This document shows, in pieces, positions 11,401 to 63,449 of a DNA stretch of 64,000 nt. A program made the translations under genes and the position numbers. The DNA is taken from the NCBI RefSeq assembly GCF_037042905.1, contig NC_087245.1, positions 22,322,001-22,386,000 on the forward strand. Reading direction: 5' to 3'. The notes under the pieces were generated by a model. The model ran no database searches. It had not been told where the DNA came from and saw only the letters and a program-made list of their open reading frames with translations. The DNA is from Lytechinus pictus. Taxonomy: Eukaryota. Every line of letters starts with the position of its first letter. Within the stretch, counting starts at the first letter, position 1.

Positions 11401-11889
11401 ATTGGAAAGAATCTCTTTTTTGATAAGTTTCTGTCAGGCCTTGAGCACAGATCGACTTCGTAGAACCTTAAATGTCATTCCAATGTGACATGTAAATGTA
11501 TGTATTTAAAGTGCGCATGAGTTAATCTTTTATTTTTTGATTGATAGTGTTACAAATCAGACTGTTAGCTTACATTTTACTGCAGTTTCTCAAGTTCATG
11601 AATAAATAATTACAAAATTTAGAGATTTCAATATAAGGAAAAATACATATGTATTTATGTTCAATTCATCTCACACAAATTAATTCACAGTACATTTTCC
11701 AATTTTATCATGCTATACAGTAAGTGGACATTTAATGTGGTAAAACAAATCTTTCCAATATTTTAATATGTTGAAAATTCAATAGCAATGCTTGAGAAAA
11801 TAATTTGAATTTTTTCATGACTTCGAGTTATTCTAGGCTCTAATAAATACTGTACTTTAAAGGAACTTCTTGGTTTCCTATAACTTTTC

Positions 11890-18884: not shown

Positions 18885-20298
18885 ATTGCATTTCAATCTC
18901 CCGTAAATAGGTGATGAAGGAATCAGGTCGAATGGGGAAGCACCCTCTCCATTGGGATTCATCTTTATACTCTCATCAAATCCCCATAATTCCTTGAAAA
19001 TTGAGATGCCATAATCATGATTATGCTTTACTTGTAATTATACAAGAAAAGTTCCTGCTACCCATTACAGAGAGGTTTATAACAGGCATAAGCCTTATTT
19101 ATGGCGATGTAAAAAGAAACCATGGAGCTAAATAGCTCTATGAAGAAACCAAGGATATCATGGAGTAGGTTGTTTTCCAAAGCTGGTGTGCTTCTGAAAA
19201 GCGATAGAAAACTCAATTATGTCACGTATCCAAGGCAATGATGGATATGAAAATTGAAAACAGAATACTGTAGAGCTCGGATGCCAAATTTCAAAAGAAA
19301 TATTGTAGAGCTTGAATGGTATATTTCAAAAGAAATTACATTTGCAACTATTATTGCATTAAATTGTATATGAAGTTACTATATGAGCTAAACGACTTTC
19401 GAAGAATAGATGTGTCAAATATTGTTCTTTGAAACCCCAAGTTGAACAAAAATATAAACATAGATTTTGAAAGAAAAACTTAAATGTGTTGATACTCTTG
19501 TAATATCCGATTTACAAATCTTCTTCATTAATTTGTTAAACAACTTTTTTCAAAAGGTTTGGCAAACAAGCTATTGAAATTGTCCAGTGTTTTACAGCCT
19601 GGGGTCTTGGAATCTTTCTAGGTTATCAAGTTGGACCCAACTAATGTCCTGCTTACATAAAGTCTTTCCCTTGACACTGCGCGTTACCTTAACTTCCTGA
19701 CTTTACCTTCGAGACTCTACAACCTGTCATACGCTTATATTGTCACAAGCATGGCACCACTGTGCCCTCCTCGTCCCCTCCAATTGTTATTTCTAAGACA
19801 ACCATCTAAGATGAAGAAACAGAATGAGGGGTGGAAGCTCCAATTTCCTTCTTGCGGTCAGCTAATTTGTCAGCGATCACTCCCTTCAACCCAAGAAAGC
19901 CTTTTGTGTCAATGAATTGTTCTGAGTCACTTTGTTACTGTCGCTACATTTGCCGCAGAGATATTACACATTCAAGAGAAGTTATTTCTAGCTTCCTTGT
20001 AAATGCCAATAACAATGAACGGCATGCACACCCATAAAACTCACATCCAATAAACTTTGGATAAATAAATCTAATTTGCTCTAGTGCTGTGGTTGATGTT
20101 TCTTTAAAATGAACGAGACATTAATTACTGACAACTGATGAAAGAGTTCACTGCTCTCAAGTCAACAGGATAGTGTGTTAACCCTCCAAGATTTTCAGTA
20201 CTGTCTCAGAACTCTATCCTTCATTTAGTTTTATAAGTATTTTCACAAACTTTTCATGGAGAACTAACAAGCATCTTTAGAGGACCCTTGTTAAAAAA

Positions 20299-20751: not shown

Positions 20752-21391
20752 ACAATTCAAAAGAAGATTCAGAGAGATATGTGTTAATATATGTAAATTT
20801 ACTTTGCAGCATTCAATACTACTTCAGAAAAACAAATGTTAAATGTCACGTTAGTGAAGTAGAGAATGGGAGTGTGGAAAGACAGCAGAAATTAGATTGT
20901 CACATTAATTTCTAATATCTCTGTATTAGAAAGATCTCTCTTGATGCAAATGGAATTCAACAAATATTTCAATTCTCTTTCCCTTTTTTATAATGAAGCA
21001 TAGGAAACTTACAGCAACACCTCTACACATTGCTACCAGATTGGATAAGATCACAGTGATTTTTTTGTTATTGTACTTTTAATAATTCTTTTCTAGTGAA
21101 ATTAGTCATACCAATTTTAATCAAGAATCCTTTTTCAGCAAAAAAAGCTCTTACTTGTGAAATGTCTATTTTAATCACTTGATCAACTAACATTTTTATC
21201 CAGCTTTGAGAGTATGAAACTAGATTTGAATCTGTAACATCAGAAACATCGTTTTAGGCAGTTAATAATTAATCCATTAAATAATATCCTCAAAGCAACT
21301 TGGCTGGGATAAGAGGAAAATGTGTATCATACTGTGAAATCAAAGCATGTTCAACTGGTTTTTATCAGGTCATTAAAATATGTGTACTTAC

Positions 21392-22214
21392 CAATATAAA
21401 GAGATGTCATCTTGGGTTTCACATTTTCATCAATGTATGTAATTCCAAGTGTGTAGAGGGGTGCTGCCCCCAGGCCATGAAGAAACTGCGCTCCAACAAA
21501 TACCCAAAAATATAATGAAAGCCCACTGGTCTCCTCTACAGAGTCACAAAGGTCCGTCCCGTTACGGCCCGCATCACAGTACTCGTAATCCGATGATCGG
21601 AATTGATAGTTTGGTGTTGTGAATTGGGGAAGCATGAATATAAAAGAACCCACAGCAAAGATGAACGCTCCAAAGGCAAGGATTCTTGGTTTGTGGCGAC
21701 GTTCGCCGAAATACGTGACAAAGATGATGACGACCATGACTGAGAAGTCGTAAGAGCTGGAGATGAAACCGCTCCGCACGGAGGGAAGTTTGAAACGCCT
21801 CTCTAACGTTGTAGTGATGACGTAGACAAGTCCGTTAACAGTTATACCCTGCGTAATGGCGAATATACAAAGAAATACAAGAAACCAGGGGATTTTAGAA
21901 CAGCACTGTAATGATTTGGGATGTATCTTCCCCCATCCGCACATATGCTCCTCTTCGATGACATTGTCAACACTTTCATCCTCGTACGCAACACGAGTTT
22001 TGACCGAACTGTATCCATTTGATGATGGCTTCTGATGCTCAACACCAATGACATCTAGGTCCCCTGGCGAAATGGTGCTAATTGTTCGAATACCTGGACT
22101 GGCATTGTTGCTAGAGTTGATAGTATGCACATGGTTCGAATGACCGTTTCCAACATGTAAACCATCCATGATATTGCTGTTATTGTTGAACGACTTCTCC
22201 TCTGGATATTCCAT
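21392..22214 (-). CDS. SLCO4A1-like: First coding exon of a solute carrier organic anion transporter (OATP/SLCO), SLCO4A1/SLCO4C1-like
   Basis: Translation has OATP hallmarks: CGWGKIHPKSLQ, ITTTLERRFKL, GFISSSYD, YFGERRHKPR, GLGAAPLYTLGITYIDENV. The ATG is in ACCATGG context with an in-frame upstream TAG (22253-22251). The exon ends at ...SLYI G|GTAAGT (donor 21391, phase 1; 823 nt = 274 codons + 1). The ORF-track tail KYTYFNDLIKTS is intron read-through. Confidence 0.95.
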
Positions 22215-23371
22215 GGTTATGTTTCCGTAGTGCCTTTTGAATTTTAAAATCTATCAGATGATAGTAGAAACTCTGACACCACCGATAAAGTGTACCTTAC
22301 TTGGTGCTTCAAGAAGTCAGTCCAAATAGCATCTGCACTGCTGGCACGTTGTGTGCACTTTCCATGCGAGATATCTGTGATGAGTTCACCGGCTACTCGG
22401 CACTCCGCACATGTTCCCAGTTTGTACACGCACTGCAATGGATATAAACAATAAAAACATCTGTTAGTCCAAGACTAGTAGATGGAGAAGGAGAACTGAA
22501 ATCGTTCTTTAGGGTGGAGTCTGCAAGTGTCATTAACAGCGCGAGCCTCTGGACAGTCAAATGATTGCTCCCAAGCCACCAGGAATGTAAAGAGAGCAAT
22601 TGCATGGACGGGGTTTTGGCAAAGCCGCACTGGCTTGTAAACTGAGAAGGTTACACAGGTTCAGTTACAGAAGATACTAAATGAATGTACAATGCCGTCA
22701 ATGGTTTACGGCAATTTGTTTTGATCTTCCCCCTTTCAAGAGCTCCAATGATTAACAGCCACTATAATGAGATAGCTTACAAGAAGCAAAGGGGCAGCCT
22801 TGTATTAAAATATAGATCTTTTAAGCGCTATCGATGTCTCCTGATATTTTCTGAGGAGGACACAATTAGTGATCGGGTGACAGGAAGATGCTCAGGATGT
22901 CAAGTTCAAATATAGGCAAGCGGATACCTGCACGCACCTTTGGGACCCACTGTTCAGATCAGATGCTATCAAGCATTAAACGGTGAGGTAACTGATCATG
23001 TGACCACCAAGGTGTGTGTTACTACTAGTCTTGGGCAAAGTTAGCCAACAAATCATCAATGAGGGGTGCGCTGTCAATGACGGATAGGCAGAACTGACTC
23101 AGTAGGAGTACGTACCTCGTAGCCGATTCAATGGTTAGCTGTCACTCTGATGCGTGATGGACAGTCAGGTCATGGAGCGAGAGAAACGTAATGAGCCTGG
23201 CTAGGATGCAGATCACTGGCCTTGCGGTGGCTAACGATATGATCCTCGGTATGACGTCAGCCTGATTGTGTTTTTATGATGAACCAGGAACTACCATGTT
23301 ACTAGTCCCGTGCTAACAGTGACGTAATACACCAAGGCGCAGGAAGTTTACTATTCTATGCAGATGGTAAC
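22215..23371 (-). other. Candidate 5'UTR part of the first coding exon (two possible acceptors)
   Basis: More GC/CpG-rich than the flanks. Acceptor-like ttttgtttcctttttgttgttgcAG ends at 23372, and a second, tgtttttattgtttatatccattgcAG, ends at 22433. Confidence 0.55.
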
Positions 23372-24543: not shown

Positions 24544-25097
24544 TACCCTTTTTACACAGGATTTTCTTAGCCCCGGACTATCGCTAACCCCGTACTATCC
24601 TTAACCCCGTACTATTTTGTTTTCCTTTTTACACATGCCAAATTGTTATTGCTAACCCCGGATAAGGAATCCTTGCTTTTCACACACGAAACTCGCTAAC
24701 CCCGGACTAGTGGTTTTTGTCGATCATTCGTAGTACAAGTACTTCACTCGTACCTTTTTACACACGCTACAATTTCCTTAACCCCGTACTATAGGTGGGG
24801 CCAAATTGCCATTTAGCCCCACCTATAGTACGGGGTTAAGCTTAGCCCACTTTCGTTTTACACTAGCGATCTTAACCCCGTACTATCGCTCTTAGCACCG
24901 CAATTGCTGGGATAACCCTGCTTTTTTGCAGGGCCAAATAATCCCGTACTAAAGGTGGGGTTAGCCCACTTTGCAAAAATGCTGTGTAAAAAGAAAGTGG
25001 GCTAAGCTTAACCCCGTACTATAGGTGGGGCTAAATTGCCATTTAGCCCCACCTATAGTACGGGGTTAAGGAAATTTTAGCGTGTGTAAAAAGGGTA
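24544..25097 (+). mobile_element. Young Harbinger-like MITE, copy 1 (554 bp)
   Basis: TIR TACCCTTTTTACACA, 3-bp TSD TTA, many AACCCCGTACTAT repeats and internal palindromes. Near-identical to 47646-48198. Confidence 0.93.
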
Positions 25098-25855
25098 TTA
25101 GAAATAGTTCAAAAATACAAGAAGATGCTGAGGTATGAAAACGTTGTTATATCCAAATATCTTCATGAAATGAGACAAAAGAAACAGAAAGATAGAGCAA
25201 TAGTAAATTATAGAGAATATACGTCAGCGCATATGTAATTTGAATAAATGGAAACAGGATGTAAACTGATTACTGAAATGACAGGATCCACCTACAACAT
25301 TAATTAATATAACACACAAACAAAAATAATTTAATCAGCTTTCATATCCACCCCAGTCTCAAATTACCATAGTATCAGTGTTGCATCAAAGGAAATTTCA
25401 AGTATCTAATATCTAACACTTCAGGATTTACAGAAAGTGAAGGACAGTGTGGTGATAATCACCTTTCTCGACAACTATACAAAAACACACAACACAACGG
25501 CACAGTAACCTTTTCCGGAAAATCAATATCCACATTTTACAACATACTGAATGAAGGATTTTGAGTTTCAATAGCTTTTTCTTTTCTTAGGTGAATTACC
25601 AACTTCAGAATATATGGAATTTTAAAGTAGTACATAATAGAAGGGAGAATTTTCAAATATCGATGGTTTTATCTTGAACTCAATTTCCTTGACAAATACT
25701 AGGAAAAACTACCCTCTCTTTCATACTTGTTTTCAATGCATACTGGAAATATATTCCAACCCCCCTAAAAAAAAAATTATAATAATAATAATAATATTAT
25801 TAATAATAACAATAATAATATTAATAATAACAATAATAAAAATGATAAAGATAAT

Positions 25856-30047: not shown

Positions 30048-30717
30048 AACACTTGACTACTCTTCGTTTGTTTAGATTGAACTCGCGAGGTCAAAAGGTG
30101 AGCTGAGAAACCTGTTGATGCGAAGTACGTACGTGTAGTCTACATTGTGTAGACCGTGATAGCATGAATGTGACCAACGTACGCATCAAGTTGCTAATTT
30201 CTGTTATTTCTGTTGCCGAGGTTTTTACCTGACTGCTAAGAAAGCACGAATGCCTGTGAGCAAGCAACCAGGGGACCAACGGCTCAAGGTCGAACAAGCA
30301 GAGTAAAGGCGTCATGAGTCAAAAAATGAGGGGGGCAGACATGACGTCAGGGACAAGATTTCTTATTTTTGCATCCACACAAGAAAGCTTGCATCGAGAT
30401 ATGGAAAAATGAGAAGTTGAGTATTGCGCGGTGCACGTGCTTCAGAGTTGTGATTTCCAGGGCCGACCAGCATGTAGAGTCTTACAACAGAACTTTACAA
30501 GGCACGCCGTGGGGCAAAGTGCAACAACGTATGTGAAAGAAGACTAAGCAAACCTGGAGAAGCAGCAAGGTGCAACATGTACAAGGGAATTGTGCATGTA
30601 CATTACGTCTGCTTTGAAATATAATGTGTACATGGGTCGCCGAGTTTTTATGTAGTATGGGGAGGGGGTGGGGGTAGCCTATAATGATATAGTAGGGCGC
30701 TTTATACTTTATACAAT

Positions 30718-30738
30718 CATGGACCTATTACGTCCATG
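30718..30738. mobile_element. Putative excision footprint of the 53738-54579 family
   Basis: CATGGACCTATTACG + GTCCATG (sharing one G), i.e. both TIR tips. Flanks ATACAAT/CTATAAT match at 5 of 7. Confidence 0.7.
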
Positions 30739-32110: not shown

Positions 32111-32654
32111 CCGGGGGGGGGGGGGGGGGGGGCACTTCCATTGACGAGTGGATACCATGCGCGACCATGGGGTCTCGAAAAGCACCCAAACACGTATTTT
32201 CCATATTCTCAAACTGCACCCCTTAACAAGTTTTGGCGTCTCAAACCGACCCTTAACAAGTATTGGAAACAAAACGATACTCTTGGCAAGTATTCCCGAA
32301 ATGAACCCCTAAACAAGTACAGCGATATTTTATTGTTATGTCGGGTCCGTCGGTCGTTGGTTTTACCTTTACACATCATTATTTTGGTTTAGTACGGCCC
32401 CATGCACCTTCCACAACTCGCGCAAGTCGGACTCTAAACACGTAGTGTTGGGGCAAAAAGGACATCCTTTATAAAACATTTTAATTTTGTTTCATCATCC
32501 CCGAAAATATTACCCTAAACACGTAGCTTTCCTAGCAACATAGATACCCTTTTTTAAATATTTTTGTGTTTTTGACAAAAAGACATCCTTTTTACGTGTT
32601 TTTGGGGTCGCGCATGGTATCCACTCGTCAATGTAAGTGCCCCCCCCCCCCCAG
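32111..32654. mobile_element. Non-autonomous DNA transposon with poly-G/poly-C tips and 8-9-bp TSD
   Basis: G20-CACTTCCATTGACGAGTGGATACCATGCGCGACC ... GGTCGCGCATGGTATCCACTCGTCAATGTAAGTG-C13. Flanking direct repeat AGTGAAGG(C) at 32103 and 32655. Confidence 0.9.
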
Positions 32655-42285: not shown

Positions 42286-43907
42286 TCTAAAACTTCCCTT
42301 GGTAAACTTGTATACTTACGATGATCTTGAATGAGGCCTTGAACATTCTAAAAACATCTTCAAGATGTGGTTTTATCATTAATTTTTGGCTTGCAACCAA
42401 AGCAACGGTATTAACACACCCTCAATTTCACCACAGCAATCATGTCAGCGAAAAAGACAGTTGTTCCCAGTCGCTCAAATACCAAAATAGAAGATGTTCT
42501 CCACAAATGTTACCACTGATAATGGATGTTGGCACAGGTTGTAAGAGACAAAACTAGGAAAATAGGTACATCCAAAATCATAATTAGCAACTGTCTTATC
42601 AAATGAGTTGAACAGCTGTTTTGTTTACGAACGCAAAATCAAAGCATCCGCCGTTTCAGAATCATGCACGACTTTGCATCATGATTCCAGCTATTTTGTT
42701 TCATCTATATTCTTGATTTTACAGGAAAGTAATATTTCCTTGGTAAATTTGCCCAAATTTTTGCCAATTTCGTGTTGCTTTGTGCCAAAAATTGAAAGAA
42801 GGGAGTGTTTGTCGGCTGTAAGGAGATCTGATTTGAGAGGAGAAACGAGCATCGAGTGATGGGTCTATGAGCGCACCTTACTTCCTGTGCAATGACGCAG
42901 GTTACGTGACGAGGTTATTTTGGGATATATCTGTCTGAGATGTATAAACAGTCAGGTAATAGGATTTCAAGACAATGTGAGGCTCAGACTGACAACGTTA
43001 AGGGGATAACGTGTAAGAAACTTATATATCACAATGCAGCCATAAAAATTATTTTATATTCTATAGTATTACATTGTATGCAGAAAATGCTATATCAACC
43101 ATTCTTAAAGGCAATTAATGTGCTTGAGCGGGCAATTTACATGCTCAATGAAATCAATCACTTGATTTTTCACCACAATTCTAAAAGATCAATAAAAAGC
43201 CAATAGAAATGTGTCAATCACCATCAGACTTAAGGTGCAAATATGAAGCAAGCTTTCTGAAATAATCGAACAAAAATTCAGATGTGAATTCACAAGTGAT
43301 ATTCAATGTGTGCGTAAGTACAGATATGTATATATATAAATATCATTTCAATATCACTTTCTCCAATTAACTTATTTTCAAGGAGATATGAGGTCTATGG
43401 AAGATCAATGACCTGTAGTTTGCAGTAGTTCATTAGGCTTTATCCAAAGTCGTCTCAAAACTGATCCACTCTTTTAACAGGAATTCATTAAAGTCTCATT
43501 TCACTGCCAGGTAAAAGACTGAAAATATTGACTGATTTCATGGTCAAAATATGCCAGAATACCACTCTCTTTCTCTTTCTCCCACCACCTCCCTCTCTCT
43601 TTCTCTCTACTTCATACCAGGTCCCCTTTCATTAGGATCAATGAATTTCAAACTACTTTTCCCACTTTTTTCTTATTATACAAGTAGCTGACCATGAGAG
43701 AAGACCCTATGAACAATAGAGACCAGTAGCCTAATTTCTTTAAAGCCAATTTTGTGATATTGTCTTGAAGGCAATCATCCAAACAATGATATAAAAGCTC
43801 ATCATTAATTTTGGCCTTATTAGCAATATTTACTCATTGTTTTCTTGAATAAAAGTTACTTTAATCTCTCAACTTGAAATAAATATGCAGCTGAAATTGA
43901 ACCTTTT

Positions 43908-44213
43908 GGCCCATATTCTGAAGTCGGGTTTAATTCAAACTTTGGTTTTAAGTTGTGGTTAAACTATGGAAAGCAAGTTGTTACATAAATCTCTAACAGT
44001 AGAGGTTCAATGTATCAGCTCATTTGACTCCCAAAACATTATTAACTGCATGGGAAGGATAAGTATGACTATTGTCTTCACCATCAAATAATTAGTGAAG
44101 AGCCGTGAGAAGCATTCACTGTAAACAAAATTTTGAAAATTTGGCTTCCCATGATTTTGGCACAGAGTTAGACCATGGTCTATAAAGTTAAACCCAACTT
44201 CAGAATACAGTCC
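43908..44213. mobile_element. MITE (~306 bp)
   Basis: GGCCCATATTCTGAAGTCGGGTTTAA ... TTAAACCCAACTTCAGAATACAGTCC, with TTT on both flanks. Confidence 0.75.
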
Positions 44214-44588
44214 TTTATCTTTACAATGTCAAATTGACACCTCAAGTTGAAATCCAAAGAAAAGTTGTGAATCCTCCAAAGGTCGTTAATAGTAGATGGA
44301 AAGTTGGCAAAGAACAATAATGTTAAAGAAGATGTGATCAGATCAACACATTGGGATTCTCCTCTGACCCACGACACATGACAAGACAATTCAATAAGTA
44401 CATATCTCACCAAGATGCTCTATGGATCCAAGCCAATAATCACAGCTTGAAAAGAAACTGGAGAGGGAGAGAGAGCAAGCAAATGGGGCACCTTATTTCT
44501 TTATAGAGACAACTGTATTCATCATAATGACAGGTTTGTGGGTCAACCACTTTTTCCAAAGACCATAAAAGATCCCACTTAGTAAGAA

Positions 44589-44608
44589 CATGGACCTATA
44601 GGTCCATG
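44589..44608. mobile_element. Putative excision footprint of the 53738-54579 family
   Basis: CATGGACCTATAGGTCCATG (11+11 nt of the two TIR tips joined at an AT overlap) between perfect 7-bp direct repeats GTAAGAA (44582-44588, 44609-44615). Confidence 0.85.
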
Positions 44609-44638
44609 GTAAGAATTGAAAAGTAAAGAAATATTTAA

Positions 44639-46904: not shown

Positions 46905-47645
46905 TGATCTCATATGCCTCTCTAAACTGGGCATGATATCACCTTATGTATCCCATAGATTTTCCAAAGATTCAGCTGGTATGGCCAAGACAGAACCTGA
47001 ACTCTTCAAAATGGACCATCCCCAGGTACTCCATCACCCCCCCCCCCCCCACAGACACACACACACTCAAAACAAAATTGTCCACTCTACATCACCGACG
47101 ACTCTCAAAATTGGGATGGAGCTTGCTACAAAAAGAGCTGCAATCAAACACAACTCGAAAAAATCAAATGCACCTTGATATTTAACCAATCAGAAGTATG
47201 CAAATCAAACTTGCATTTGGTTGGATTTCATGAGTATTGCATTTAAACAAACAAAAAAACTTTCTGCAAAGATCCTCTTTTAAATAAAATAGATCTGTAA
47301 ATGGTAATTTTGTTTTTAAAAAAAAATGAACTACTGGCTGAAAGCAAGGTACCTGGGCCAGAATCCAAGTAAATGCCTGGAAAGTGACTTTGCTGTTACA
47401 CTTGCCCTTTAACCTTATTTGCTAAGCTTGTCATTGTTGTCTTGTAAAAGTATATGTTTGTATTTATAACAGGGACTCAAAAAGAGAAGTGGTCGTCTAG
47501 ACTAATATGAGGTCCCTGCAGAGCACCTGTTTAGTAGATGTGAAATCATTGATGTTGTCATCTTCAAAGATACCACAGTGCCATGTCTTAAAGGAAGCGG
47601 CAACTCTCTGTCTGGTGTCTCTCTTGTACTTCTCTTCCTTTCTTG

Positions 47646-48198
47646 TACCCTTTTTACACACGCTAAATTTTCCTTAACCCCGTACTATAGGTGGGGCTAA
47701 ATTGCCATTTAGCCCCACCTATAGTACGGGGTTAAGCTTAGCCCACTTTCTTTTTACACAGCATTTTGGCAAAGTGGGCTAACCCCACCTTTAGTACGGG
47801 ATTATTTGGCCCTGCAAAAAAGCAGGGTTATCCCAGCAATTGCGGTGCTAAGAGCGATAGTACGGGGTTAAGATCGCTAGTGTAAAACGAAAGTGGGCTA
47901 AGCTTAACCCCGTACTATAGGTGGGGCTAAATGGCAATTTGGCCCCACCTATAGTACGGGGTTAAGGAAATTGTAGCGTGTGTAAAATGGTACGAGTGAG
48001 GTACTTGTACTACGAATGATCGACAAAAACCACTAGTCCGGGGTTAGCGAGTTTCGTGTGTGAAAAGCAAGCATTCCTTATCCGGGGTTAGCAATAACAA
48101 TTTGGCATGTGTAAAAAGGAAAAAAAATAGTACGGGGTTAAGGATAGTACGGGGTTAGCGATAGTCCGGGGTTAAGAAAATCCTGTGTAAAAAGGGCA
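47646..48198 (-). mobile_element. Young Harbinger-like MITE, copy 2 (553 bp)
   Basis: Reverse complement of 24544-25097 with few differences. TIR TRCCCTTTTTACACA, 3-bp TSD TTG (47643-47645, 48199-48201). Confidence 0.93.
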
Positions 48199-53610: not shown

Positions 53611-53737
53611 TTGGCTCCTTCATACTTGTTATGTTGTATTATTTGACCTGAATTTCCAATTCAAATGATAACAAACACCACCAACCACCCCAAAGAACTG
53701 GTCGAGGTACTAGTCAATTTCATGATGTAGGTTAAAT

Positions 53738-54579
53738 CATTGACCTATTACGAATGGACATTCAACGAGAGCATTTTATGACCACCACCTGTTTCCAGTT
53801 GTCAAAATTGCTGTCTAACCCTTAACTTTCTCTTTACGTGGTTTTTACGACGACCGCCCGGGGCGATTGTTTACACAAGCTCCTTTCGGCCGATGATCGT
53901 CACCGATCGATCACTGGCCCTCTTTCGACCAAAGACGGTCATGTTGTATGCCCGATTGCCAATAGGGAAAGTCCCTACATTACCTAGAATGCAATGCGCA
54001 ATTCATATCCGGTTTTTCAGTACATTATTTTAGGATGTCTATAATGTGCGATTGTCGTCTGTCCATCAAAAAAAATCCCGTTAAATTTCATCAATCCTGT
54101 GGAATTTTATGCCCAAATGAAAATCAACTTCTGACCGAAGGTAAGCGCTACTATCGACATCAATACTGTCCGAAAAAGATGAAATTTTAACGTTTTTCCG
54201 CAGATTTTTTCGTCAAATTTCAACTGCTTTTTTGCCGTAGATATACGGATCTGCAAGGTGATGTCAATGCATTTCATTTCCGGTTGTTAGCGATGTACGT
54301 AAAAAATACGTTTATGCACGCCTGTTTTCTTGTTTCTGCTATCATTTTCATAGCGCTAACGTTCGCTGCTGTGCGTTGCTTTTGATAAAGTGAACGAACA
54401 ACATCGCAATGGGTAGGAGCAGCGTACAATTGATTTCCGCTGTCCATCAGTGAGAGCGTGTTTTACGACCGGCTTGATGGGTGTCAGCTGCCAGCGCTCT
54501 GTTTATAAAAGGATTAGCGGCGACGGTCTTTGGGTCAAAGGAGGGGATTCGTTGAATGTCCATTCGTAATAGGTCCATG
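53738..54579. mobile_element. P-superfamily-like non-autonomous element (842 bp)
   Basis: 31-bp TIR CAT[T/G]GACCTATTACGAATGGACATTCAACGA (1 mismatch), perfect 7-bp TSD GTTAAAT (53731-53737, 54580-54586), subterminal inverted CCAAAGAC motifs, and no ORF. Confidence 0.9.
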
Positions 54580-57500
54580 GTTAAATCCCACCGCTGCCAC
54601 CAATATTACAGTTCCAGACATTTTCAATAGCCCTCTCTCCTCTAAGTGCCCCAATAAACCAATGTGGTTTGGGTGCTATTTCGCTATAATTGGAGGACTT
54701 CAAGTATGCTGAACATAGGAAAATTTATGCACTGACATAGCAACACACCTTGCACATTGCTTAATCCATTGAAAGTGCGATTATTTTTTATTCATACCCC
54801 CTCCCGTTACTGTAACCTACTAATTAAAAAATGCTAGAATTAGACAAAAGTGTTGCAGTTGCTCTAGAAAGATTTTGAGTACTTTTCATCATTTTCAGTT
54901 TTTTTAATCCACATGATTTACATTCCTTCAGGTATTTGTTCATGTCTTCTCATTCCTTTCGAGTTCCATCACATTTACATTCCTCAGGCCTATATCTTAC
55001 ATTCTGCTCACAGAATGCAGTCTGCTCAGTCTCAACATTCACAATCCAATTCCAAATGTTACTGATGTATGTATCATTGTCAAGACCTATATCCAGTTAA
55101 ATATCAACTACACAGAGGCAATTGACTCCATGTTGAATGATCCAAGTTATCAGTATCTACGCTTCACATTCCATCCGCATCAATGGCATAGGAGAACATG
55201 GAATGAGAGGAGCAAATACATTTATTCTCATTTTCAACCATGAGTATCTCATTTCATGAGCTATTAGGAAGATGGCTCCTCATTTACGGACCCTGTTTCA
55301 ATACCATTGCCAAACAAGCCCTTGGTATAAGTTACATACGGACTCCGGACTCCGTTTCAATACCAATGCCACACTTGTTATAAGTTATTCAAATGGCATT
55401 ACTTGATTGGTTAAGAGCAAATTTCCCATAAATTTCTCGCAGCAAGTTTATGGATTACTAGTATGTTTTATGAAACTGCACCCTGTTCAAAATACCAAGA
55501 AAAATATTAATTCTACTTTACAGTTAGAGCCCCTTATTTTCAACTGCAATACGAAGTATTAAATCTTTGCACTTTTCCCACAGGGGATACTCAAACATAA
55601 AAGAGGACATCCATCACCAATACACACAATGTTCAATTCTCTCTCTGAATATCGTATTCCATACAAGGCCTCAGGAGATTTGTATAATACTAAAAACTAC
55701 ATTCCATCATGTTTTCACACACACACACACCCACACACAGATATATACTGAAAATATCTGTGAATACAATATACAAGGTTGGAGAAAATACTTCATTTCA
55801 TATTCGCCCATACCTGATTTATTATTTTAGAAAATACCGCACACATATGGAAATCTTTGCATACCAGTATAACTTTTGAATACCATCAAATCATCTTCCG
55901 AAACCTTGAATGGAATGGTAAATTATCACACAGGACTGATCTGTCTATAATGAAGAGCAAGCGTCCGTATACTGCTATACTTTTGCCAGAGATTGAAGAA
56001 AACAGAAATTAATTTCTTTAAACAATTATTATTCTTTGCTGATATCTCCACAAACCAATGAAAATAGAGGTATTCACAAAACCTTTCAACTTATTTTCAA
56101 ACAATAAAAACACAACATGAGATAAAGTGTTCAACCAAATCTCCTTTTTAGTTTCCCCTATCAAGTTCAAGGTTGTATAAAGTCTAGAAGATTTTGCTGT
56201 ATTACAGTGAGCTGCAGTGGTTTGAGAATTATGCATCATGTTTCAAAATGCAAAATGGGTAAAATTTCAGAGTTTATCCAGAAAATTTCCTCACGTCAAA
56301 AGGAGGATTTATCTAGATTTGTGCCATTTTCAAGTGACATATCGCATATCCTGTAAAAAAGAGTACATTGATGCTGTTACCTACGTGAATGTCACGTCAC
56401 ATAATCATAACATCCTCAGAAGTTCCACAGGTTGCTATGTTCACATAGTTTTGATTGGTTGGAAATTGATTTGATTTTATCACCTTATCACTCCTCAGAC
56501 CCACTGAACGACCAAGCAGTGGGCCTACATAGTCTCTTGCACAATGCACATCTGAAAGTAAATTTAGGATTTTTTATATTTCAGAGATATAATACCTAGG
56601 ATACAATATGCTTTTTATAAATGAATTGTTTTGAGCTAAATTGTCTTTCTTTTAGGTTAAAAAATGCTGCTGCTAAAATTTGAGATGAATTTCATAACTT
56701 GTTGTGGGGTTATACACTTGGATCAGTCGATCTACATTTTTCAAAATGCATTATCACATCACTTTACGGCTATCACTGTTATATTGTTTTATAATCCACA
56801 TACAGGCCTATATTGATAATTCCATTTGTATGGAAGAAAGCAACAAAAAACTGCTATTTGATTGCCCAAAAGTTTACTGTGAAACACATATTTTGTCACT
56901 CCACATTTGTGGTATAGAGAAGAAAAGGCACAATCAAGTGTTAAAACGCCAACAGTGGAATAACAAAGTTAATTCACCAAGGTGTTGGTTGCTGTAAGCC
57001 AATTTACTCCTCACTAGTTGACTTCTAGCTCCTTTCACTTGGCGAAATTCAATTTTCAAAAGGACACTGTCAGCTGCAGGAACGGATTGACAAACAACAA
57101 TCGGACCAACTACAAATCTGAGCAAGTGTTCCCTTTTCTTCATAGAGAATTTAGATTGTTTGAGGGCGGCAAAGGAAAAAAGCGATTTCTGGAATGAAAA
57201 GGGATTGAATAGAAATGAAAATACAGCGATTTCGGTGTGAGAAATGGGGTTGTCGCCTGCAGGAATCGAAATCCGGAATGGCAGGATAAGGAAGGCCCGC
57301 TGTGAGGATTATTGTTAGAGATCTTTTTTCTGCTCTTTGGAAAAGAGGACTAAAAGTGCATCTTGTCCCCATTCAGCTTACTAAAATATTATGTATAGCT
57401 CTAACTGAGAGTGGTAAATAATATGAATAATTTAGACTTGAGATCCCATCATTTCTACAGTCATTAAAGCCCCAAATTATTATCACGAAACAGGGTGTGG

Positions 57501-60500: not shown

Positions 60501-62614
60501 ACAAGGGACTCTGAATTATTGATGTCAGGGTTAGGATATGTAAGCAATACACATCTCGCATAAAAACCTGATATATATGATATAAACATCCCATGACTGC
60601 ATGGCCTAAAAGTCATATCAAGTTTAACAAAGTTTGTGTACTGAGTTCCCATGGTTCCTTGCTATCATCGAAGTATCAAATTAAAATCATGGTGGCTTTT
60701 TCTTAAGGGGGGGGTACAAATAAGACCATTCATACTTTCTAATCTCCCTTAGAGGATGCCCACCCTCATAAGATCTGCTTGGAAATAATTTTTCCCGGTC
60801 AATATCGGCATGGTGAATTTGATCTAAAAGATCTAGGAAGCGATCCTCTGGACTGATCTAGAATAATTCTGATAGAATAAATGGAAAAAGTTCCAATATT
60901 TGATCTTTACTGGGAGTGCATATAAGAACTTTGCATATTTGAGATTAGTGTGTAGGGCCTACAATTTCAAATTTATGCACAAATCTTCCCCGTTCTCCAA
61001 ATTCAAATGATGGTGTTCCCATTGCAACATGGGCTATTCTACTGAACTCTGTTGTAGCTACAAAATCAGTGGATTGATCCCATCAGAAGACATGGCACAA
61101 TGAAGCAAATTTTTCCCTTTGATATTGAAATGTTTTGTTTCTACTCTCTGTCTAGCATCACTCATGATCACTTAAAACATCTTTGTGCAAACATGTAGGA
61201 TCTTCAATCTTGTCATAAACATTGATCTTAATTAGTCTAATGACTGCCCTATCCTAAATACAAGATGATTATCTGCCACTTATAGGAAGGAATACAACAA
61301 ATCGGTACTTAAAATTTTCCCACACAATTAATTGCTACAATCAATTGCTACTTAATCAGATGATGAGAGCTTGTCTAATCAAAACCTTTCTGTTATATAA
61401 TTGAATTATAATTGGTTTGTTTCATTCTTCTTTCATTACAACCAGTCTATAATCATCATTTAGATCATTTTGTTTTGCAAAACTATTGGTAATCCTTAGA
61501 CCCATCATATGCAGACATTCCCAAATTAAATGGATTAGAAATTGATACATGGAACAAAAGATTATAATCATGTATCCACATGTCAACAAGCTACAATACG
61601 AAACAATTTTCTTTACAACTACCGCCAAAACAATACAAAGATCGTATCATCATCAAAGCATTTTTTCTTCACAATAACAAAGTTCAAGTAAAAAATAGAA
61701 CTAAAGAGAAAATCTTATAAAGAGTAGAAGGATAACAAAGACTCCATAACTGAAAAAAAATAACTTAAAGTCCGGAAATAAATAACTTTTGTCTTTGTTC
61801 TCGCCTACCAGCATGCCAGACTCAATGAACTTCAGACGATAGATTTGTTCATACCCAGTAAACAGATCTAATCCTACACATTCATGTGGGTGTATATCGT
61901 CACATGATTTACAAAACTGCAGTGTACTCAATACACTAGAATTACCATCTACCAAAGGACAAAATAAAAATCATGAACGTTCAAATTCCTGACACAATAC
62001 TAATTTTAGCACTCCACAGCATAACAACAGCTACAAATGCCAAGGAAATTAGTACAGACTATCTAAAAAAATTATATTATTAACCCATTGCTTACTAGAA
62101 CACGGTTGTCCCTGTACAAAGTCTATGGGAATTACAGAATTCAGTAGTCTACAGGTTAACACCAAATACGGCAGTAAAGAACTAATAATAATAAATCATC
62201 GGTGGTAACTGCTTCCTTATGATAATGAATTCCTATGTAAAGAAAAAAGCAATGACAAATTAGCTCTATTCCACATTCGTACTTTGGGCAAAATCACTTC
62301 ATTTTGTTTTTCAAGTTCACAATTTTAAAGAGCGCAGGTGAATAACTCCCAATGAAATTCATTCATTCATGACCAATGAACTTCCCTTTATATACTCCGA
62401 TGAACCTTTTGCCACCGCAGAAAGACAAACCAACTATGCGGAAAGAGATTTCGAGAAGAATTGTTACTGTTTTTACTCCACCAAAATGGGCAACAGTTGT
62501 GATTTGGAGGTTAAATGGTCCAGAAAATACCAACAGGTAATGTGTACAAGGAAGTCTGACAGAGATGTATTACTAGTAATACTCATAAATCACTGGTGCT
62601 TCTACTCCTTCTTG

Positions 62615-63449
62615 GGGTGCGTTTATCCGCCACTTTTTTACCCTAGAATCATGATCTGAATCATGATTCAAATCATGATTCTGCAGAATCACGATTGCGT
62701 TTAGTCGAAATTGAATATAATCATGATTAGAATCACAAACATGAAACACGAAAAAAGGGGCGTTTGGAAAGACGTTTCTGCAGAATCACGTACGAAAATG
62801 TTCGAATAAACGATATCGTGATTACAATCATGATTCTATGACCTCACTGTTGTGTCGGGCTACTTTCGGTTTGACTCTGGCCAAGCTCAAGGCGCTCTAT
62901 ATGCTCATTGTATGTACATGATTATGTACTACGCATTCATTTCTTGTCATGTTCAAGTTCTGTGTTGGTCATCGCATCGTCCACTACTTTTCATTTTTTG
63001 GTCATGTCTTCAAGTTCTAGTATAAAACTAAATGAATTAACTGGACAGACAATGATCTCAGTTGTTGTTGAGTATACAGTATCAATATGGGATCAATATT
63101 AAATTGGATCTACGCTGAAATTCACTTCCGAACACCATTTTGGGTAAACTAACAAGATGAATAGAAGCATATGGACCCTATATGATAGAAGTAAACAAAA
63201 TGAGGTATAGACTGAATTCTGGAAGCAAAAGATTTTTCGAGAGCCGAAACACGTGCGAAAAACTTCCTCTGTCAAACTGCGCACTAGTGATGCGCACTGG
63301 ATTGGCCCGAATCTGAGGAGAAACAGCATTGGAATGAAGGTCGTCTAAACGCTGATTCTGTGATATTGTGATTCATGTTTGTGTTTTGAATCATGATTCA
63401 AATCATGATTCAAATCATGATTCTGGCTTGAGGTCGCATAAACGCAGCC
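62615..63449. mobile_element. Non-autonomous TIR element with AATCATGATT subterminal arrays
   Basis: GGGTGCGTTTATCCG ... CGCATAAACGCAGCC. The palindrome AATCATGATT is repeated near both ends. No matching TSD. Confidence 0.8.

What the first reader, a model, noticed from the sequence alone, without database searches (positions are those of the whole stretch)
44582..44615. 20-bp palindrome between perfect 7-bp repeats: apparent excision footprint of the P-like family
Seen: GTAAGAA-CATGGACCTATAGGTCCATG-GTAAGAA. The insert is exactly the outer 11 nt of each TIR of the 53738 element, joined through a 2-nt AT overlap. Known: P transposase cuts with a ~17-nt stagger, leaving TIR tips at the donor site, unlike most cut-and-paste superfamilies. 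Inference: the scar records P-type staggered cleavage followed by end-joining in the germline. It would give mechanistic evidence for the family and a way to count past excisions that repeat-masking would miss.
Basis: partly seen in the sequence, partly recalled or inferred. Interest (0 to 1): 0.75.

Follow-up and report, generated by a model that had tools for sequence, protein, structure and literature searches.

The report
Excision scar of P-like transposon
This 20-letter palindrome is the two tips of a jumping-DNA family joined together inside a 7-letter duplication, most likely the scar left when a probable relative of the fruit-fly P element cut itself out; it is real but an expected kind of scar, and it does not by itself show the 17-letter cut depth.

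Summary
The feature is real. 44589-44608 is two 11-nt tips of the TIR of the 842-bp element at 53738-54579, overlapping by AT, between perfect 7-bp repeats. It is exact only against the right TIR, because the left TIR differs at position 4. A second scar of the same family, not part of the finding I was given, lies at 30718-30738 (15+7 nt; flanks match 5/7). Shuffles give 0.02 such inserts per window. In contigs of a related organism the 53738 site is cleanly empty with one 7-bp target copy, so the TSD is real. The scar site there lacks the palindrome but is not a clean empty allele. Best reading (0.7): excision left long TIR tails on the donor flanks, which were then joined by microhomology, as for Drosophila P. 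The data bound the tail only at 14-15 nt or more, not at 17. No genome was held, so the length-cap test could not be run. No transposase was found, so P membership rests on end and TSD anatomy. This scan has already noted such scars several times on other DNA of this genome. New member of a known kind; interest 0.3.

The parts
44582..44588 (+). left copy of 7-bp target-site duplication GTAAGAA
44589..44599 (+). left TIR tip, 11 nt (last 2 nt, AT, shared with the right tip)
44598..44608 (-). right TIR tip, 11 nt
44609..44615 (+). right copy of the 7-bp duplication
30718..30738 (.). second scar of the same family: 15-nt left tip + 7-nt right tip, 1-nt G overlap; flanks ATACAAT / CTATAAT match 5 of 7
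53731..53737 (+). left 7-bp TSD GTTAAAT of the full non-autonomous element
   Evidence: single copy at the empty site in organism A
53738..54579 (.). 842-bp non-coding element of the family; multi-copy in organism A; no Pfam hit at cut-off in 12 frames tested
53738..53768 (+). left 31-bp TIR (30/31 to the right TIR; T at position 4)
54549..54579 (-). right 31-bp TIR
   Evidence: loose ends at 54579
54580..54586 (+). right 7-bp TSD
19114..19149 (.). candidate scar of another family: 22-nt imperfect palindrome (19121-19142) between perfect AAGAAAC repeats; parent not found in the window
63161..63191 (.). weaker candidate scar: 17-nt CAT..ATG insert (63168-63184) between perfect ATAGAAG repeats; parent not found

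Best explanation
The insert is two tips of the family's terminal repeat joined inside a 7-bp duplication, and it is likely the repaired donor site of an excision in which a probably P-type transposase left long single-stranded TIR tails on both flanks. Shown: tip identity, TSD, the family's 31-bp TIR and its 7-bp duplication on insertion. Inferred steps: (1) a family member inserted at GTAAGAA; (2) the transposase cut at the tip on one strand and at least 14-15 nt inside on the other, so each flank kept a 3' tail of the same TIR sequence; (3) two tails of identical sequence can pair only at self-complementary words, here AT at positions 10-11, and trimming and fill-in would then give a perfect palindrome of 11+11-2 = 20 nt; (4) this happened in the germline and was inherited.
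For: Tip match and null. The second family scar is 15+7 nt with a 1-nt overlap. Both scars keep 17 nt or less per side. If deletion breakpoints were uniform over 842 bp, that has probability 8e-4 per scar; with exponential repair tracts it is 0.024 per scar for a 100-nt mean and 0.33 for a 20-nt mean. The AT overlap is one of the symmetric joins this TIR allows (tip lengths 3, 4, 10, 11, 13, 15, 18, 24, 30). The empty site in organism A skips 849 = 842+7 nt with 7 letters shared, so the 7-bp TSD is a true duplication (X4 with 122 letters on the short side, X6 with 28, X5 none listed). CAT..ATG inserts of 4-40 nt inside a perfect 7-bp repeat number 4, against 0.15 expected (0 of 200 shuffles reach 4); 4- and 5-bp repeats show no clear excess. 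Drosophila P cleaves 17 nt inside its 31-bp TIR (PMC7776569). Its end-joined donor sites are TSD + TIR tips + TSD, and an AT-overlap palindrome is the commonest short-microhomology product: 14 of the 66 isolates I count in Table 1 of PMC2895639. The P-superfamily members 1360 and Galileo make 7-bp TSDs (PMC3698922; PMC4168063).
Against: Only 2 scars of this family were available, and there was no genome, so no cap is shown. The longest tip is 14-15 nt and nothing points to 17. In the fly tables the common products lose about 1 nt per tail, whereas 11+11 needs 6 nt lost on both sides; the CG join at 15+15 would need less trimming. No transposase remnant was found. The second scar's flanks match only 5/7 (chance about 0.016), and under a relaxed definition 3 of 100 shuffles reach 2 inserts. 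At the scar site organism A lacks 41 nt and has 3 others, 11 nt more than a clean empty site would lack; this was seen in one contig of 4 runs.
Confidence: 0.7

Rival explanations
1. The element was excised with a short or blunt cut, and gap repair from the sister chromatid then aborted early, re-copying only a few TIR bases on each side before microhomology joining.
For: Abortive gap repair after excision is expected to give large deletions with breakpoints near the element ends (PMC8277862 passage). With a mean tract of 20 nt, two such scars have probability 0.11. Internally deleted copies of the family exist in organism A (table 5).
Against: No TIR-tipped insert of 41-800 nt with a perfect TSD is in the window. 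Tracts of 50 nt or more give 0.007 or less for two scars.
Confidence: 0.15
2. The deletion needed no transposase: the two TIRs paired as a stem on single-stranded DNA and polymerase slipped across at a short repeat (like Tn10 'nearly precise excision'; recalled, not checked in a call).
For: It would also leave TSDs and both tips. The TIRs are 30/31 complementary and 780 nt apart.
Against: It should favour the longest microhomologies. Those are 5 nt (19+26) and 4 nt (38+19, 26+33) in this element, but the scars use 2 nt and 1 nt. Transposition-independent breaks in TIR elements removed a median 4.6% of the element and were skewed inward (PMC8277862 passage), whereas here about 98% of an 842-bp copy would be gone.
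Confidence: 0.1
3. The 20-mer is itself a tiny mobile unit inserted with its own TSD.
For: It has perfect ends and a perfect TSD.
Against: The two family inserts differ in length and junction (20 and 21 nt). P transposase needs internal binding sites beyond the TIR (PMC7776569 passage).
Confidence: 0.03
4. Chance palindrome, or hairpin-opening (P-nucleotide) footprint of a hAT/Transib/MULE element.
For: Perfect palindromes of 20 nt or more occur at 0.12 per shuffled window. Hairpin opening makes palindromes (recalled).
Against: Those superfamilies form the hairpin in flanking DNA (PMC5499845 passages), so the palindrome would copy the flank. Here it copies the TIR 11/11. Null is 0.02 per window.
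Confidence: 0.02

Closest known systems
Drosophila melanogaster P-element donor-site end-joining junctions (P{wa} assay; PMC2895639 Tables 1-3)
   Same: TSD + TIR tip + TIR tip + TSD; 1-3 nt microhomology; AT-centred palindrome; tips of 17 nt or less; parent TIR of 31 bp beginning CATG.
   Different: 7-bp instead of 8-bp TSD. Tips of 11+11 and 15+7, shorter than the usual fly 16+16. A natural inherited allele rather than an induced event. Transposase and cut position unknown.
Galileo and 1360/Hoppel (P superfamily; PMC3698922, PMC4168063)
   Same: 7-bp TSD; non-autonomous derivatives.
   Different: Galileo has long internally repetitive TIRs. I saw no excision junctions for either in the passages read. 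No sequence comparison was made.
Natural DNA-transposon excision sites in rice (PMC4423477)
   Same: Excision read from genome comparison of related species.
   Different: The passages seen describe TSD-only, flank-deleted or filler-bearing sites of Mariner, Harbinger, Mutator, CACTA and hAT, not sites with 7-15 nt of both TIR tips.

Membership tests
P superfamily of DNA transposons | P-type DDE transposase (THAP, GTP-binding insertion, D(2)H) | not testable with these tools
   The 842-bp copy has no Pfam hit at cut-off in the 12 longest of 24 listed frames. There was no genome in which to find an autonomous partner. The metagenome TIR scan gave 4 matches; none extends along the TIR or shares the element's interior.
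P superfamily of DNA transposons | 7- or 8-bp TSD | tested here: met
   7-bp TSD; a single copy at the empty site in organism A. 7 bp for 1360 and Galileo, 8 bp for P.
P superfamily of DNA transposons | TIRs with P-like ends (fly P: 31 bp, starting CATG) | tested here: met
   31-bp TIR, 30/31, right end starts CATG; fly values. This is a resemblance and is not diagnostic alone.
P superfamily of DNA transposons | Subterminal inverted repeats or internal transposase sites (fly: 11 bp and 10 bp) | tested here: inconclusive
   Self-BLAST shows only 8-13 nt matches with E of 0.5 or more apart from the TIR.
P-type excision footprint | Both TSD copies intact around TIR tips | tested here: met
   44582-44615 has a perfect TSD; 30718 only 5/7.
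P-type excision footprint | Retained tips capped at the stagger (17 nt) | tested here: inconclusive
   Tips of 11, 11, 15 and 7 are all within 17, but n = 2 scars; only a lower bound of 14-15 nt follows.
P-type excision footprint | Full-element or clean empty allele at the same site | tested here: inconclusive
   Organism A lacks the palindrome but also 11 more nt; seen in one contig (X6). X4 stops at the same base; X1 and X5 are uninformative.
hAT/Transib/MULE hairpin footprint | Palindrome derived from flanking DNA | tested here: not met
   The palindrome matches the TIR, not the flank.

The most novel reading that the evidence does not exclude
Scars of long-stagger transposons are common fixed features of this genome (4 perfect-TSD candidates in 64 kb) and record each family's cut depth. 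This family may cut at a depth other than the fly's 17 nt, possibly near 15 nt: its 31-bp TIR is an imperfect dimer of a 15-nt unit (10 of 15 positions alike, read from the sequence), and the longest tip seen ends at that boundary. Scar catalogues would then give transposase cleavage geometry and counts of past excisions without biochemistry.
Probability: 0.2. Interest if true: 0.6.

Novelty: new member of a known kind. Interest (0 to 1): 0.3.

Why it matters
Most excisions leave marks that cannot be assigned to a family. Scars that keep TIR tips name their parent. In bulk they could show whether the P element's unusual long stagger is shared by distant 7-bp-TSD relatives, help classify non-coding families, and count excisions that library-based repeat masking probably misses (inference; masking was not tested). 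This single scar adds one data point to a mechanism already known from flies and already noted by this scan.

Tried and rejected
Metagenome scan with the 19-nt TIR tip: 4 loci. L001, L002 and L004 are one coding-sequence match, and L003 diverges after about 20 nt with no second end. None matches the element beyond the tip; rejected as chance. Earlier-findings look-ups by sequence, by nearby place and by relatives returned nothing. Pfam on 12 element frames: two sub-threshold hits only (E 0.1 and 0.23). Sequencing runs: no run held half the words of the scar region; the best share was 0.14, so no same-population allele was available. In one search a very high-copy repeat starting at 44635 swamped the tables (236 joints and 2772 loose ends hidden). 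Rejected as scars: two 8-bp-flanked CATG hits (63404 lies in a tandem array; 63592 is a 12-bp tandem duplication), single-sided CATGGAC matches such as 34064 and 60009, and relaxed pairs 44174-44608 and 61972-62114 (chance level). The TIR tail has no self-structure that would single out 11+11. Nine literature searches listed no title or abstract start on natural P-type TIR-tip scars outside flies. The library lacks most subscription papers, one review of TSD lengths was not held, and no supplements were read, so this is not proof of absence.

Full report
Observation. The window reads GTAAGAA (44582-44588), a perfect 20-bp palindrome (44589-44608), then GTAAGAA (44609-44615). The element at 53738-54579 is 842 bp long with 31-bp TIRs (30/31) and a 7-bp GTTAAAT repeat; an 8-bp repeat does not fit. 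Each half of the palindrome equals the first 11 nt of the right TIR, with a 2-nt AT overlap. The left TIR has T at position 4, so 'exactly each TIR' holds for the right end only.

A second scar. 30718-30738 is wholly made of the same ends: 15 nt from the left and 7 from the right with one shared G (or 14+7). Its 7-nt flanks match 5 of 7 (chance about 0.016). An exact copy of the right flank also lies 32 nt further left at 30679, so its true TSD is uncertain.

Chance. Inserts wholly explained by the two tips: 2 observed; mean 0.02 and maximum 1 in 100 local dinucleotide shuffles. With a looser rule (6 of 7 tip letters, flanks 5 of 7), 3 of 100 shuffles reach 2, and with a perfect 7-bp repeat none reaches 1. 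Regardless of family, CAT..ATG inserts of 4-40 nt within a perfect 7-bp repeat number 4 (11476, 19121, 44589, 63168; lengths 17, 22, 20, 17) against 0.15, and 0 of 200 shuffles reach 4. Repeats of 4 and 5 bp show no clear excess, and 6 bp gives 3 against 0.64 (6 of 200). Shuffles destroy ordinary tandem duplications, so this null is lenient: the two 8-bp hits are such duplications. Among the 16 dinucleotide end types, near-palindromic inserts occur only for CA ends (2), one AA case and low-complexity TA tracts.

Other genomes. No genome is held for this window. The run search found only small shares (0.14 at best) in three samples of one coded organism, A. Laid contigs differ from the flanks at about 5-7% (18-24 letters in about 345), and most listed differences are shared by the samples, so A is likely a relative rather than the same population. 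At the 53738 element a contig skips 849 = 842+7 nt with 7 letters fitting either side (X4, 122 letters on the short side; X6, 28; none listed for X5). This is a clean pre-insertion site and shows that the family duplicates 7 bp. The family is multi-copy in A: depth over the element is tens to hundreds of times that of the flanks (not a copy number), and 7 and 9 contigs leave at 54579 into unlike sequence. Of 23 joints, 15 are shown: one is the empty site and 14 are internal, none with both breakpoints within 70 nt of the tips. At the scar site one X6 contig goes from 44573 to 44615 with 3 other letters (table 5c). The palindrome is absent, but 11 nt more are missing than a clean empty site would lack. 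X4 stops aligning at the same base; X1 and X5 end earlier. The insert is therefore absent from that lineage's allele, but the order of events at this site is not proven.

Coding capacity. The 12 longest of 24 stop-to-stop frames over the element have no Pfam hit at cut-off. A metagenome scan for the TIR tip gave 4 chance loci. No transposase could be tied to these ends.

Mechanism. Drosophila P transposase cuts at the 3' tip and 17 nt inside the 31-bp TIR on the other strand (PMC7776569; passages; the section on the strand-transfer structure). Donor sites repaired by end joining read TSD-tip-tip-TSD. In Table 1 of PMC2895639 I count 66 isolates: 27 with short microhomology, of which 14 are one AT-overlap palindrome of 16+16, 20 with long microhomology, 1 blunt and 18 with insertions (abstract; two results sections with Tables 1-3). 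Both tails have the same sequence, so a symmetric join can use only a self-complementary word. For this TIR such joins fall at tip lengths 3, 4, 10, 11, 13, 15, 18, 24 and 30, and the observed 11+11 is one of them. This explains the perfect palindrome without any function for it (inference). It does not give the cut depth: 11+11 needs 6 nt trimmed from each 17-nt tail, and the 30718 scar sets only a floor of 14-15 nt. Uniform internal deletion would leave both tips within 17 nt with probability 8e-4 per scar; aborted gap repair gives 0.33, 0.08 or 0.024 per scar for mean tracts of 20, 50 or 100 nt, so a short-tract version cannot be excluded with two scars. Slippage between paired TIRs should prefer the 4-5-nt microhomologies further in, and transposition-independent breaks in TIR elements were small and internal (PMC8277862, passages). 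Hairpin-type footprints copy the flank (PMC5499845, passages) and do not fit.

Comparison. It works like a P-element donor scar. Membership of the P superfamily is probable but untested on the defining protein. The 7-bp TSD matches 1360 and Galileo (PMC3698922, passages; PMC4168063, passages), and the 31-bp CATG-ended TIR resembles fly P. Natural excision sites in rice superfamilies look different in the passages seen (PMC4423477). PMC9977147 records one P-family excision in Chlamydomonas without a junction in the passages seen. PMC8230255 sequenced excision products only in a supplementary figure that I did not read (passages). Nine searches (listings only) showed no paper on natural scars of this type outside flies, within the limits of the library.

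Earlier notes of this scan. Searches list several unchecked notes on the same genome, which they call a sea urchin (not tested here). They describe the same kind of scar. One covers 856 letters with a 31-bp CATG TIR and 7-bp TSD (842+14, probably this family), one a 15+15 CG-joined scar that matches a join allowed by this TIR, and others claim hundreds to thousands of scars and family-specific cut depths. I could not see their sequences or repeat their counts. They gave me the two main papers and show that the idea is not new within the scan; they are not counted as support.

Verdict. Real, most likely an excision scar with long TIR tails (0.7), new member of a known kind, interest 0.3. The added value here is the second scar and the clean empty site that confirms the 7-bp TSD.

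Noticed in passing
window 21351-22250 (-): Open frame of 299 aa holding the N-terminal part of an OATP/SLCO transporter (Pfam OATP, E 6e-53); likely one exon of a host gene.
   Followed up: partly
window 19114-19149: 22-nt near-palindrome between perfect AAGAAAC repeats; candidate scar of a different CA..TG family, with no parent in the window.
   Followed up: partly
window 63161-63191 and 11469-11499: 17-nt CAT..ATG inserts between perfect 7-bp repeats; weaker scar candidates.
   Followed up: partly
window 30679-30717: An exact copy of the 30718 scar's right flank (CTATAAT) lies 32 nt left of the scar; either chance or a 32-nt insertion between the true left TSD and the scar.
   Followed up: no
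window 54549-54579 (-): The 31-bp TIR is an imperfect dimer of a 15-nt unit (10 of 15 alike), seen in the print-out.
   Followed up: no
window 43893-44226: 334-nt high-copy stretch skipped by contigs of all four organism A runs (25 other letters in X6), so likely a lineage-specific insertion.
   Followed up: no
window from 44635: A very high-copy repeat begins 20 nt right of the scar's TSD (hundreds of loose ends at 44634-44635).
   Followed up: no
window 24616-25104 and 47639-48127: Two copies, 98% alike and in opposite orientation, of a repeat with 111-nt internal inverted arms.
   Followed up: no
window 32120-32652: Element-like stretch with 47-nt inverted arms (98%) ending in G/C runs.
   Followed up: no
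L003 2487-2510 and 3736-5001 (-): Metagenome contig with a 23/24 match to the TIR tip near a frame that looks like a sodium-channel gene by eye; no second end found.
   Followed up: partly
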